Part shown: piece after piece, positions 37,835-39,244 of the stretch
Layout: each line of letters begins with the position of its first letter
How positions within the stretch are numbered: position 1 is the stretch's first letter
Source of the DNA: Gammaproteobacteria bacterium
GTDB lineage: Bacteria > Pseudomonadota > Gammaproteobacteria > JAUIAT01
Length of the DNA: 64,000 nt
Assembly (NCBI GenBank): GCA_030425295.1
Contig: JAUIAT010000006.1
Coordinates: forward strand, 9,487-73,486
Reading direction: 5' to 3'
Translations under genes and position numbers: made by a program
The notes under the pieces: generated by a model
Seen by the model: only the letters and a program-made list of their open reading frames with translations
Databases searched by the model: none
What the model was told of the DNA's origin: nothing

Positions 37835-39244
37835 CTAGAAGATCCCCTGAATAATAGGATGCACGTATTCTTTAATAGCCTGATTAGTTATTTTATCAAC
37901 AGGTTCTTGAACAAAAGCATGCAGAAGCATATTCATTGCATCTTCATAGCTAAGCCCGCGACAACGCAAATAATATAAAGCTTTTTTATCTAGGTGCCCA
38001 ACTGTTGCGCCATGAGTGCATTTAACGTCATCTGCATAAATTAATAATTCAGGCTTTGTATTAATTTCAGCAGTTTTTGAAAGCAATAAATTAGGGTTAT
38101 GTTGATAAGCTTGAATTTGCTTAACACCCTCAGCAACACTAACCTTACCATTAAATACAGCACAACCTTTATCATCTGCCACCCCCTTATAAAAGAGATC
38201 GCTTAATGTATAGCTAGCATTATGGTTAATCTGCAAGTGGTGATCATGCAAATCCTTCCCCTTAGGCAGATATAAACCATTCATGCAGCAGCTGGCTCCA
38301 GTTTCATTAAGGTTAACTTCCCAATCATCCCGTGAAATAGCACCACGTAAACTAAAATTAGAGACATGCAAGCAGCTGTCTTTTTTCTGTTCTACAAAAA
38401 ATGTATCTGTATGGTAATTATTAGATGATTCATTTTGCAGCTTTGTGTAAGTCAATTTTGATCCTGGATTTAAAGTAATGTCATGGGTAAAATTACCCCA
38501 ATTATTACTACCAAACCCTACATGCTCCTCAAGCATTTCCACTTGAGAATTAGCCTCTAACCTAATGATATTAAAAGCATTATTGTAACTAGGTGATTCA
38601 ATATCAGTTGATACATGCAAGATATGAATAGGTAATTCTATAATCTTATTTTTTGGTACTAACAAGCAATACCCATCTTGCAGCATACCTATATTTAAAG
38701 CAGTTAAAGGATAACGTTGCTGCTTACTTAGCCTTGTTAAAACATCTTGTATAAGATCATCATGTTTTTCCAAAGCCTTATTCAAAGGCAATAGGATTTC
38801 GGAATCAATAAGATCTTCACATGATGAGTGACCTGCAGAGAATTTGCCGTTAATAAAAACCAGCTTATAACTAGATCCCGCGGTCAAGCCGCGGGATGAC
38901 AATGTTTTTTGAACCTCAGGCGACAACCCTTGACCTTCAGGCGACAACCCTTGACCTTCAGGCGACAACCTTTGACCTTCAGGTGGCAATGCTTGATCCT
39001 CACCTTCTTCTCTCATTCCGCGGCTTGACCGCGGAATCCATTCAGAACCATAAACAGAAAATTCTGATACCTGAAGGGGTCTTAAGCTTATGTACTTCCA
39101 GTCCTCTTCACGCCTAGTTGGCAGCCCACGCTTGTTAAAATAACTTAATGCATCAACGGATATTGCTTCAGCCCATGCTGGAAGCGAGGCACCCTGCTCT
39201 TCGCGTAATTTCTCAAAATTTGTAGCTAATTCTTGCTTAATCAT
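37835..39244 (-). CDS. sufD: SufD, carrying an in-frame ~53-aa insertion derived from a palindromic repeat element.
   Basis: 469 aa. SufD family C-terminal beta-helix region. Inserted peptide SSRGMREEGEDQALPPEGQRLSPEGQGLSPEGQGLSPEVQKTLSSRGLTAGSS encoded by 38874-39028. Confidence 0.85.
   Translation of the reverse strand: MIKQELATNFEKLREEQGASLPAWAEAISVDALSYFNKRGLPTRREEDWKYISLRPLQVSEFSVYGSEWIPRSSRGMREEGEDQALPPEGQRLSPEGQGLSPEGQGLSPEVQKTLSSRGLTAGSSYKLVFINGKFSAGHSSCEDLIDSEILLPLNKALEKHDDLIQDVLTRLSKQQRYPLTALNIGMLQDGYCLLVPKNKIIELPIHILHVSTDIESPSYNNAFNIIRLEANSQVEMLEEHVGFGSNNWGNFTHDITLNPGSKLTYTKLQNESSNNYHTDTFFVEQKKDSCLHVSNFSLRGAISRDDWEVNLNETGASCCMNGLYLPKGKDLHDHHLQINHNASYTLSDLFYKGVADDKGCAVFNGKVSVAEGVKQIQAYQHNPNLLLSKTAEINTKPELLIYADDVKCTHGATVGHLDKKALYYLRCRGLSYEDAMNMLLHAFVQEPVDKITNQAIKEYVHPIIQGIF
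38874..39028. repeat. Family A-type palindromic element inserted in-frame inside sufD. Two inverted hairpin modules bracket 3-4 copies of a 21-bp tandem unit (CAGGCGACAACCCTTGACCTT).
   Basis: GATCCCGCGGTCAAGCCGCGGGATGACAA at 38874 and CATTCCGCGGCTTGACCGCGGAATCC at about 39003-39028. Tandem units at 38928-38990. Reading frame maintained. Confidence 0.8.

What the first reader, a model, noticed from the sequence alone, without database searches (positions are those of the whole stretch)
38874..39028. Palindromic repeat element inserted in-frame into the essential Fe-S assembly gene sufD
An approximately 155-bp stretch inside sufD is not SufD-like. It is bounded by the two inverted hairpin modules of the dispersed family A repeat (GATCCCGCGGTCAAGCCGCGGGATGACAA ... 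CATTCCGCGGCTTGACCGCGGAATCC). It contains 3-4 tandem copies of a 21-bp unit (CAGGCGACAACCCTTGACCTT), which keep the frame and encode (S)PEGQGL heptads. The ORF stays open, at 469 aa against about 410-430 typical. The element is therefore translated as an approximately 53-aa insertion (SSRGMREEGEDQALPPEGQRLSPEGQGLSPEGQGLSPEVQKTLSSRGLTAGSS). This is the same phenomenon described for Rickettsia palindromic elements, here hitting a housekeeping gene. The 21-bp tandem units also create potential for length polymorphism.
Basis: seen in the sequence. Interest (0 to 1): 0.75.

Follow-up and report, generated by a model that had tools for sequence, protein, structure and literature searches.

The report
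Hairpin repeat translated inside SufD
A roughly 170-bp palindromic repeat (two hairpin modules around a 21-bp tandem array) sits in frame inside the iron-sulfur assembly gene sufD and adds a floppy loop of about 55 residues. It is a new example of a known phenomenon (Rickettsia-type "coding palindromes", also called CGTC-tagged REPs or Ssn-related hairpins), not a new kind of element.

Summary
sufD (37835-39244, minus strand, 469 aa) contains a GC-rich element at 38871-39040, made of two inverted 30-nt hairpin modules flanking a 21-bp x 3.6 tandem array. It is translated as residues 69-124.

None of 119 SufD homologues has the segment. Their linker at this position is 27-41 aa, against 76 here. 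AlphaFold2 models a normal SufD fold with the insert as a low-confidence loop between the N-terminal helices and the beta-helix. Logan contigs assembled separately from sequencing run ERR3428545 reproduce both junctions at 100% identity.

The hairpin fits the described CGTC-tagged REP superfamily (Di Nocera 2013), in which RPE-4 and RPE-6 of Rickettsia and dRS3 of Neisseria are placed. It also fits the Ssn-related motif (SRM), the class of hairpins cut as ssDNA by the GIY-YIG nuclease SsnA and its tested homologues (Chenal 2025). The exact 25-mer occurs in many Proteobacteria, including Rickettsia, often in frame inside housekeeping genes.

It is a new member of a known kind and most likely a tolerated passenger. 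Interest is modest. One side observation may be new: tandem half-hairpin arrays of 19-23 nt beside these hairpins in many genomes, which probably gave rise to the 21-bp coding units.

The parts
37835..39244 (-). sufD ORF (469 aa), the host gene. It lies in the operon rrf2/iscR-like, sufB, sufC, sufD, sufS, sufU, sufA, sufT.
   Evidence: ORF list. Pfam SufBD_N and SUFBD_core. Homologues. AF2 model with TM-score (normalised to the target) 0.85 to E. coli SufD 5awf_B. Neighbouring genes.
38871..38901 (-). Hairpin module 1. On the minus strand it reads TGTCATCCCGCGGCTTGACCGCGGGATCTAG: TGTC tag, 9-bp stem, 5-nt loop, 3-nt tail. It encodes SSRGLTAGS (residues 116-124).
   Evidence: It matches the published SRM search pattern exactly.
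38902..39010 (-). Spacer between the hairpins. It holds about 4 tandem 21-nt units (TRF 38909-38983; a further degenerate unit runs to 38992), two of them identical. It encodes P-E-G-Q-G/R-L-S heptads (residues about 79-115).
   Evidence: TRF, unit scan, codon map. The units resemble the tag-side half-hairpin units at 50175-50237 and 61388-61429. That resemblance is my inference.
39011..39040 (+). Hairpin module 2. On the plus strand it reads TCTCATTCCGCGGCTTGACCGCGGAATCCA, with a variant TCTC tag and a CCA tail. It encodes WIPRSSRGMR (residues 69-78). With module 1 it forms a tail-to-tail (TT) dimer, meaning the tags face inward.
   Evidence: In the predicted RNA fold the two modules pair with each other (MFE -78.5 kcal/mol, z = -5.6).
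35040..35105 (.). Intergenic head-to-head (HH) dimer of the same hairpin family, downstream of sufT.
50119..50237 (.). Intergenic HH dimer followed by 2.8 tandem 21-nt half-hairpin units (CGGGATGACAAATTCTGACTT). It lies between the convergent mutS and sulP-family genes.
61322..61429 (.). Intergenic HH dimer plus two 21-nt units. The second unit (GGGACAACC...) is the closest match to the sufD units.
63830..63857 (+). Single intergenic hairpin with the compensated stem variant CCGTGG/CCACGG.

Best explanation
A selfish or neutral small palindromic repeat of the CGTC-tagged REP / Ssn-related-motif (SRM) class lies in the naturally variable linker of SufD, between the N-terminal helical region and the first strand of the beta-helix. 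This is the class in which Rickettsia RPE-4 and RPE-6 and Neisseria dRS3/NTS have been placed.

**Shown here**
- The element is a tail-to-tail dimer of two 30-nt hairpin modules. The spacer between them is a 21-nt tandem array.
- It is read through in the only stop-free sense frame.
- It adds about 56 residues, which are modelled with low confidence (probably disordered), to an otherwise normal SufD fold.

**Inferred**
- It is tolerated for three reasons. The module lengths are multiples of three (30 nt and 21 nt). Four of the six frames of the hairpin carry no stop codon. The site is a length-variable linker.
- The 21-nt units are degenerate half-hairpin units (spacer, tag and the first stem bases) that expanded by replication slippage. 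The two central units are identical.
- The hairpins spread by whatever process mobilises SRMs. That process may involve an Ssn-type GIY-YIG ssDNA nuclease encoded elsewhere in the genome.
- The insert is a passenger and gives SufD no new function.
For: - **Anatomy and frame:**
- **Foreign composition:** 54% GC against 37% for the rest of the gene.
- **Absent from relatives:** linker 27-41 aa in 119 homologues against 76 here, and no hairpin-peptide motif in any of them.
- **Fold:** mean pLDDT 84.8, pTM 0.86, residues 66-105 below pLDDT 50. Best structural match is E. coli SufD. All 52 invariant columns of the 18-sequence alignment are kept, including the C-x-H-G-x-T-x-G motif (C409-G416).
- **Family identity:** tag, 9-bp stem starting AT, 5-nt loop and CCA tail, as described for CGTC REPs (PMC3733652). 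The left hairpin matches the published SRM pattern exactly (PMC11893778).
- **Generality:**
  - The exact 25-mer was found in at least 112 stretches from very diverse bacteria.
  - 24 of 192 hairpins lie deep inside ORFs of at least 200 aa.
  - 9 of the 10 ORFs checked had Pfam domains: PepP (twice), RecG, Mfd, a molybdopterin oxidoreductase, an M16 peptidase, LipB-LipA, MnmE and a protein kinase.
- **Origin of the units:** 21-nt units follow the tag side of the hairpin at two other window loci, and 19-23-nt units do so in about 10 other genomes.
- **Reality of the sequence:** separately assembled Logan contigs agree at both junctions.
Against: - No close relative exists (the best is 44-46% identical), so no empty site is available. 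The insertion cannot be dated and its exact boundaries cannot be set.
- The element (about 56 codons) is longer than the net gain (about 45 aa). Either some native linker was lost or the ancestral linker was shorter.
- No ssn gene lies in the 64-kb window, and no transposase is known for CGTC REPs. The mobilisation step is therefore conjecture.
- Neutrality is assumed. Expression and function of the longer SufD were not tested.
- The right module has a TCTC tag and fails the strict SRM pattern.
- The link between the sufD units and half-hairpin units rests on short similarities (GGTTGTCGCC against GGTTGTCCC).
Confidence: 0.85

Rival explanations
1. The insert has been exapted. One version is a functional flexible linker or interaction loop of SufD. 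Another is an mRNA hairpin inside the operon that tunes translation or stability of the sufD-sufS-sufU-sufA part of the transcript.
For: - The two modules can pair into a very stable RNA stem (MFE -78.5 kcal/mol, z = -5.6).
- REPs are proposed to act as mRNA stabilisers or attenuators (background section of PMC3733652).
- The ORF has stayed intact.
Against: - Differences between the 21-nt units are non-synonymous (G/R, G/V), so nothing suggests selection on the peptide.
- The loop is modelled with low confidence.
- No homologue has anything comparable.
- The same hairpins sit in many unrelated proteins, which argues against a function specific to SufD.
- A translated hairpin is unwound by ribosomes.
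Confidence: 0.07
2. The whole 170-bp unit arrived in one step as a classical MITE, with terminal inverted repeats mobilised in trans by an IS transposase. On this view it was not built in place from hairpins and slippage.
For: - The termini are inverted repeats sharing 26 of 31 positions.
- MITEs inserted in frame are known, and Coxiella QMITE1 overlaps ORFs (PMC5896051; PMC10969869).
Against: - No target-site duplication flanks the element.
- The 21-nt unit, and so the composite, was found nowhere else in the window or in 113 loci.
- The other copies in the window are head-to-head dimers with different spacers.
- The central units are identical while the outer ones have diverged, which fits local expansion.
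Confidence: 0.06
3. The feature is an artefact or a decaying gene: either a mis-assembly across a repeat, or a sufD pseudogene whose frame is open by chance.
For: - Short-read contigs break inside the array, so the copy number depends on the assembler.
- The element is a repeat.
Against: - Both junctions are reproduced at 100% identity in separately assembled contigs.
- All 345 codons downstream of the insert are open and keep every invariant SufD position.
- The model folds as SufD with high confidence.
- The ATGA overlap between the sufC stop and the sufD start is intact.
Confidence: 0.02

Closest known systems
Rickettsia palindromic elements (RPEs), especially RPE-4 and RPE-6 (Ogata et al. 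2000, 2002; Claverie & Ogata 2003, as cited in PMC3733652 and PMC10969869)
   Same: - They are small palindromic repeats inserted in frame into unrelated housekeeping genes and translated.
- R. felis has 728 RPEs, 85 of them inside ORFs (PMC1166351).
- The exact hairpin 25-mer of the sufD element occurs in Rickettsia tamurae pepP and in the recG of a Rickettsia endosymbiont.
   Different: - The host here looks like a low-GC gammaproteobacterium rather than Rickettsia. Its best named SufD hits are Gammaproteobacteria and Coxiella-like MAGs, and its nearest DNA match is a Coxiellaceae MAG.
- The architecture is a tail-to-tail dimer with a 21-nt tandem array as spacer.
- The RPE-4 consensus could not be read, so direct sequence membership was not tested.
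CGTC-tagged REP superfamily, families CGTC-1 to CGTC-4 (Di Nocera, De Gregorio & Rocco 2013, PMC3733652)
   Same: - It shares the terminal CGTC/TGTC tag, the 8-9-bp stem beginning AT, the 4-5-nt loop and the 3-nt CCA tail.
- Head-to-head dimers predominate and tail-to-tail dimers are rare. In my sample the counts were 34 HH, 14 TT and 8 head-to-tail.
- Intragenic in-frame copies are documented, including clusters that encode 43-82 aa.
- No dedicated transposase is known.
   Different: - That paper does not list this organism.
- I did not open its supplementary list of target ORFs, so whether sufD appears there is unknown.
- A spacer made of tandem 21-nt half-units is not described there.
NTS/SRM hairpins and the Ssn GIY-YIG ssDNA nuclease family (Chenal et al. 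2025, Nat Commun 16:2388, PMC11893778)
   Same: - The left sufD hairpin and three other window copies match the published SRM pattern HGTCWYN(0-2)YYVSBRHN(0-5)WNVSBRGN(0-2)RNCYNB.
- In 10 of the 112 hairpin-bearing loci from other genomes, a small GIY-YIG gene lies next to the hairpins or is flanked by them. This is the published NTS-ssn-NTS arrangement.
   Different: - No ssn gene lies in this window.
- NTS copies are rarely intragenic in Neisseria (2%).
- The role in natural transformation shown for Neisseria is not known to apply here.
Neisseria dRS3 / NIME mosaic elements
   Same: The dRS3 hairpins are CGTC-1 REPs. They bracket variable repeat units, giving mosaic arrays of hairpins and spacers.
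   Different: They have a different stem (ATTCCC...GGGAAT, 8 bp) and are mostly intergenic. That they are phage integration targets comes from PMC11893778.
Coxiella burnetii QMITE1/QMITE2 (Wachter et al. 2018, PMC5896051)
   Same: They are small structured repeats in a related intracellular gammaproteobacterium. Some overlap ORFs, and QMITE2-like sequences are shared with other Proteobacteria.
   Different: QMITE2 carries a GTAG-type REP, has 7-11-nt direct repeats and is a target for IS1111. None of these features is seen here.

Membership tests
CGTC-tagged REP superfamily (Di Nocera 2013) | Unpaired terminal tetranucleotide CGTC (often TGTC or CCTC) at one end of the palindrome | tested here: met
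   Module 1 has TGTC. Module 2 has the variant TCTC. The other window copies have TGTC, and copies in other genomes have CGTC or TGTC.
CGTC-tagged REP superfamily (Di Nocera 2013) | Stem of 8-9 bp with complementary A and T in the first two positions, and a loop of 4-5 nt | tested here: met
   The stems are ATCCCGCGG/CCGCGGGAT and ATTCCGCGG/CCGCGGAAT (9 bp), with loop CTTGA (5 nt). This fits the 9-bp stem and 5-nt loop classes CGTC-3 and CGTC-4.
CGTC-tagged REP superfamily (Di Nocera 2013) | Short unpaired 3-nt tail, consensus CCA | tested here: met
   The tail is CCA at module 2 and at the tag-first members of the dimers at 35040 and 50119. It is CTA at module 1.
CGTC-tagged REP superfamily (Di Nocera 2013) | Dispersed multi-copy family, mostly arranged as HH dimers | tested here: met
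   The window has 8 hairpins at 5 loci against 0 expected. Three of those loci are HH dimers, and the sufD copy is the rarer TT type. Only 64 kb of the genome was available.
Ssn-related motif (SRM) / NTS-Ssn system (Chenal 2025) | Match to the published degenerate SRM pattern | tested here: met
   Four window copies match, including sufD module 1, against 0.04 expected in shuffles. sufD module 2 fails by one base in the tag.
Ssn-related motif (SRM) / NTS-Ssn system (Chenal 2025) | A small single-domain GIY-YIG ssn gene in the same genome, typically flanked by the hairpins | tested here: inconclusive
   tblastn finds no homologue in the 64-kb window, and the rest of the genome was not available. 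In other genomes carrying the identical hairpin, the gene is adjacent in 10 of 112 loci.
Ssn-related motif (SRM) / NTS-Ssn system (Chenal 2025) | Strand-specific binding and cleavage of the hairpin as ssDNA by the cognate Ssn nuclease | not testable with these tools
   This needs a nuclease assay on oligonucleotides of both sufD modules.
Rickettsia palindromic elements (RPE) | Palindromic repeat inserted in frame in protein-coding genes and compatible with the host fold | tested here: met
   The frame is open. The insert is a low-confidence loop in an otherwise confident SufD model.
Rickettsia palindromic elements (RPE) | Sequence match to an RPE family consensus (RPE-4, which equals CGTC-4) | not tested
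   The Ogata 2002 paper is not held. Indirect support: the identical 25-mer occurs in two Rickettsia genomes inside ORFs.
Classical MITE | Terminal inverted repeats plus target-site duplication, with several copies of the same full-length unit | tested here: not met
   Inverted termini are present, but there is no flanking direct repeat. No second copy of the composite or of its 21-nt unit was found in the window or in 113 loci.
Rfam RNA families | Match to a curated covariance model | tested here: not met
   No match reached a gathering score anywhere in the whole window.

The most novel reading that the evidence does not exclude
The 21-nt coding units may not be an accident peculiar to sufD. 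They could be the degenerate product of a general, so far undescribed behaviour of SRM/CGTC hairpins: tandem amplification of half-hairpin units (spacer, tag and one stem arm; period 19-23 nt) on the tag side of the hairpin, which is the side where Ssn nucleases cut ssDNA. If nuclease-triggered or hairpin-triggered slippage drives this, then in genomes where the period is 21 nt these repeats would be a recurrent source of new in-frame, length-variable, disordered segments in essential proteins.
Probability: 0.15. Interest if true: 0.55.

Novelty: new member of a known kind. Interest (0 to 1): 0.3.

Why it matters
This case shows that Rickettsia-style "coding palindromes" are not confined to Rickettsia. 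The same 25-nt hairpin is read through in housekeeping genes of very different Proteobacteria. Here it sits in a Fe-S cluster assembly scaffold protein of a low-GC gammaproteobacterium.

It is a clear example of how selfish DNA can add a disordered, repeat-containing loop to a conserved protein without breaking it. Module lengths of 30 and 21 nt keep the frame, and the insertion site is a variable linker.

There are two practical consequences:
- The repeat breaks short-read assemblies exactly inside sufD.
- Annotation pipelines may misjudge the gene's length.

The case does not open a new question by itself. The link to the recently described Ssn nucleases gives a testable route to how such inserts arise.

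Tried and rejected
- **Rfam:** scanning the whole window at gathering thresholds gave no match.
- **Source record:** an exact look-up of the SufD protein on public contigs failed, and the cluster look-up gave no name or accession. SufB, SufC and SufS were found on Logan contigs from run ERR3428545.
- **Close relatives:** the best SufD homologues are only 44-46% identical. blastn of the window against all fetched loci found only distant gene matches. No empty site, strain polymorphism or dN/dS could be assessed.
- **The 21-nt unit elsewhere:** there were no hits outside sufD at up to 4 mismatches in 113 loci and the window.
- **ssn gene in the window:** tblastn found none.
- **Target-site duplication:** none was found, so the classical MITE reading was rejected.
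- **RPE-4 consensus:** the Ogata 2002 paper is not held.
- **Shared tail:** a tail of about 60 nt seems to follow the hairpins at 50238-50300 and 61421-61480 in the alignment. It is too weak for blastn-short and has no other copies, so I dropped it.
- **Ancestral-domain reading:** rejected.
- **Artefact reading:** rejected.
- **Searches not run:** I ran no further search on the insert peptide or on taxonomic placement, because neither would change the verdict.
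Full report
**1. What is in the sequence**

The region is a suf operon on the minus strand:
- an Rrf2/IscR-like regulator (41590-42072)
- sufB (40161-41600)
- sufC (39241-40005)
- sufD (37835-39244, 469 aa)
- sufS (36623-37834)
- a NifU_N/SufU-like gene (36177-36626)
- a sufA-like gene (35821-36177)
- sufT (35267-35821)

Inside sufD, the plus strand reads GATCCCGCGGTCAAGCCGCGGGATGACA at 38874-38901. 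The inverted partner, TCTCATTCCGCGGCTTGACCGCGGAATCCA, lies at 39011-39040. With the 3-nt tails the element spans 38871-39040 (170 nt).

Between the hairpins, Tandem Repeats Finder (TRF) reports a 21-bp unit in 3.6 copies with 94% matches at 38909-38983. The two central units are identical and the outer ones have diverged.

The hairpin core is not a chance feature. It gives 8 matches in the window against none in 100 shuffles. The element is 54% GC in a gene that is otherwise 37% GC.

It is translated as residues 69-124 (WIPRSSRGMR ... PEGQGLS heptads ... SSRGLTAGS). Only the frame used by sufD is free of stop codons among the three sense frames.

Two contigs assembled separately (Logan) from sequencing run ERR3428545 reproduce the upstream and downstream junctions at 100% identity. 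Both contigs end inside the identical 21-nt units, as expected for k-mer assembly of a tandem repeat. The insertion is therefore real. Only the unit count depends on the assembler.

**2. It is an insertion, and SufD looks intact**

The exact protein exists once in the protein collection. The nearest homologues are only 44-46% identical and 433 aa long.

In an 18-sequence alignment the extra segment falls between the conserved WKY motif and the first beta-strand (LVFxNG). This is a stretch that already varies in the family, and no homologue has the segment.

Across the 120 best hits that linker is 27-41 residues, against 76 here. None of the 119 other proteins contains any hairpin-encoded peptide motif.

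The net gain over the closest relatives is about 45 residues, while the element encodes about 56. Either some native linker was lost or the ancestral linker was short.

AlphaFold2, run on that alignment, gives a confident SufD fold (mean pLDDT 84.8, pTM 0.86). Residues 66-105 fall below pLDDT 50, which places the insert as a low-confidence, probably disordered loop before strand 126-131.

The best structural matches are E. coli SufD chains (5awf_B, 2zu0, 1vh4; TM-score normalised to the target about 0.85). By sequence, the N-terminal match to E. coli SufD stops at about residue 72, where the insert begins.

All invariant columns of the alignment are kept, including the C-x-H-G-x-T-x-G motif (C409-G416). 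From published SufBC2D structures, recalled from memory, SufC binds the C-terminal helical domain and SufB pairs through the beta-helix. An insert at the junction of the N-terminal region and the helix is therefore plausibly harmless. That last point is inference.

**3. What the element is**

The hairpin reads, tag first, TGTC | ATCCCGCGG | CTTGA | CCGCGGGAT | CCA. This matches the description of CGTC-tagged REPs by Di Nocera et al. 2013 (PMC3733652):
- a CGTC tag, often TGTC or CCTC
- a stem of 8-9 bp starting with A and T
- a loop of 4-5 nt
- a CCA tail
- mostly head-to-head (HH) dimers, with tail-to-tail (TT) dimers rare
- intragenic in-frame copies documented
- no associated transposase

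That paper equates CGTC-4 and CGTC-1 with Rickettsia RPE-4 and RPE-6, and CGTC-1 with Neisseria dRS3.

The same class was redefined in 2025 as NTS/SRM hairpins. The small GIY-YIG nuclease SsnA of Neisseria, and the few homologues tested, bind these hairpins and cut them as single-stranded DNA a few nucleotides 5' of the tag (Chenal et al., PMC11893778). Four window copies, including the left sufD hairpin, match the published SRM pattern, against 0.04 expected.

The other window copies are all intergenic:
- HH dimers at 35040-35105, 50119-50182 and 61322-61387
- a single hairpin at 63830-63857

The sufD copy is a TT dimer, with the tags facing inward.

**4. Distribution**

The hits came from:
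- Gamma-, Alpha- and Deltaproteobacteria MAGs
- Coxiellaceae, Legionella and Kangiella
- Parvibaculaceae
- Rickettsiales, including Rickettsia tamurae and a Rickettsia endosymbiont
- a Treponema MAG

In these loci I counted 192 hairpins. The dimers were 34 HH, 14 TT and 8 head-to-tail, in line with the published picture.

Twenty-four hairpins lie at least 40 codons deep inside stop-free frames of 200 aa or more. Ten of these frames were checked against Pfam and nine had domain matches:
- Xaa-Pro aminopeptidase, in R. tamurae and, with three hairpins, in a Pseudomonadota MAG
- RecG
- Mfd
- a molybdopterin oxidoreductase
- an M16 peptidase
- MnmE
- a Ser/Thr kinase
- a joined LipB-LipA frame

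Read-through of this hairpin in housekeeping genes is therefore common and not peculiar to this genome.

**5. How it most likely works**

*Shown:* the anatomy, the frame, the absence from homologues, the low-confidence loop, and membership of the repeat class.

*Inferred, why it is tolerated:*
- One hairpin module is 30 nt and one unit is 21 nt, so gain or loss of modules never shifts the frame.
- Four of the six frames of the hairpin are open: VIPRLDRGI, SSRGLTAGS, WIPRSSRGMT and DPAVKPRDD.
- The site is a length-variable linker.

*Inferred, origin of the 21-nt units:*
- At 50175-50237 and 61388-61429, the same side of the hairpin (the tag side) is followed by 21-nt units, each containing the tag and the first stem bases.
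- In about ten other genomes, arrays of 2 to more than 9 such half-hairpin units occur beside the hairpin, with periods of 19-23 nt.
- The sufD units (…GGTTGTCGCC) resemble the degenerate unit at 61409-61429 (…GGTTGTCCC).
- They probably expanded by slippage. The identical central copies fit this.

*Inferred, consequences:*
- Changes in copy number would alter loop length by 7 residues per unit and could not switch the gene off.
- How the hairpins reach new sites is unknown. An Ssn-type nuclease is a candidate, but none is encoded in this window.

As RNA, the two modules can pair into a long stem (MFE -78.5 kcal/mol, z = -5.6). I regard a regulatory role as unlikely but not excluded.

**6. Rivals**

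- An ancestral SufD domain is excluded.
- An assembly artefact or pseudogene is very unlikely.
- A one-step classical MITE insertion is disfavoured. There is no target-site duplication, no second copy of the composite, and the unit divergence runs from identical in the centre to diverged at the edges.
- Exaptation is possible but unsupported. The unit differences are non-synonymous and the loop is modelled with low confidence.

**7. Novelty and verdict**

The phenomenon is already known from RPEs, from the intragenic CGTC REPs of Di Nocera 2013, and from the SRM hairpins of Chenal 2025. This is a new member of a known kind. Its host appears to be a low-GC gammaproteobacterium without close sequenced relatives.

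Two details may be new. SufD as a target was not checked against the published lists of target ORFs. A tail-to-tail dimer whose spacer is a coding 21-nt array is not described in the papers read.

Interest is modest (0.3).

The one thread that might repay follow-up is the recurrent tandem half-hairpin arrays on the nuclease-cut side of these hairpins. I did not find them described in either key paper. In Chenal 2025 a text search for "tandem" returned no occurrence. In Di Nocera 2013 the passages I read describe only tandemly reiterated whole elements or dimers.

Noticed in passing
L099:1265-1460 and 1795-1890; L077:1-170; L021:5606-5840; L026:1-190; L111:1950-2040; window 50175-50237: Tandem arrays of half-hairpin units lie on the tag side of the hairpin in about 10 unrelated genomes. 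Each unit holds one stem arm, the GATGACA tag and 6-12 nt of spacer. The period is 19-23 nt (20 and 21 are commonest) and arrays run from 2 to more than 9 copies. Neither Di Nocera 2013 nor Chenal 2025 describes them in the text I searched.
   Followed up: partly
L009:5158-5592, L018:2-301, L021:5285-5578, L022:1193-1531, L044:4557-4991, L045:1206-1502, L052:2438-2863, L087:3860-4171, L099:1499-1900 and 2032-2406: An all-against-all comparison of ORFs in the hairpin-bearing loci singled out a GIY-YIG protein of about 95 aa (PF01541) that abuts the hairpins or is flanked by them, in 10 loci from 9 genomes. The literature identifies it as the Ssn ssDNA nuclease family (PMC11893778). No homologue lies in the 64-kb window.
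   Followed up: yes
L093:3325-4854 (minus strand), hairpin at 4203-4230: One stop-free frame carries a LipB-type catalytic domain (residues 17-195) and a LipA-type radical SAM domain (283-445). The hairpin sits in the joint between them. This may be a hairpin-bridged fusion of two adjacent genes.
   Followed up: no
L096:2197-4194 (Rickettsia tamurae) and L055:2807-4843 (Pseudomonadota MAG): The same enzyme family, M24 Xaa-Pro aminopeptidase, carries in-frame copies of the identical hairpin in two distant lineages: an HH dimer in Rickettsia and three hairpins in the MAG. I did not check whether the insertion sites coincide.
   Followed up: no
L003:573-655: In a Deltaproteobacteria groundwater MAG, an HH dimer of the same hairpin lies between an ABC-ATPase ORF (probably sufC) and a SufB/D-like ORF. 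This is a second suf operon touched by the repeat, here in the intergenic gap.
   Followed up: no
L115:6762-7065 and L116:1-110 (Logan contigs of ERR3428545), corresponding to window 38930-38990: Both short-read contigs end inside the identical 21-nt units. In such assemblies sufD is split into a 101-aa fragment and a 369-aa fragment. This is a practical annotation hazard caused by the repeat.
   Followed up: yes
window 50238-50300 and 61421-61480: After the hairpin dimer and the 21-nt units, these two intergenic loci share a weakly similar tail of about 60 nt (…CACATTrTCmATAA…AATTGATT…CTCGAAACTCwGGTT). No other copy was found in the window or the loci, and its meaning is unknown.
   Followed up: partly
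window 747-2381, 13757-16537, 18061-19977: Three large ORFs (544, 926 and 638 aa) have no NCBIfam match at E <= 1e-10, in a window otherwise filled with housekeeping genes (AcnA, MutS, FadD, an MscK-like channel).
   Followed up: no
protein P0022 (SufD homologue, 474 aa): This homologue has a C-terminal extension of about 45 aa (…SLRHAPRNDKFISSSPLL…) that is absent from the other homologues. It may be read-through into a different repeat.
   Followed up: no
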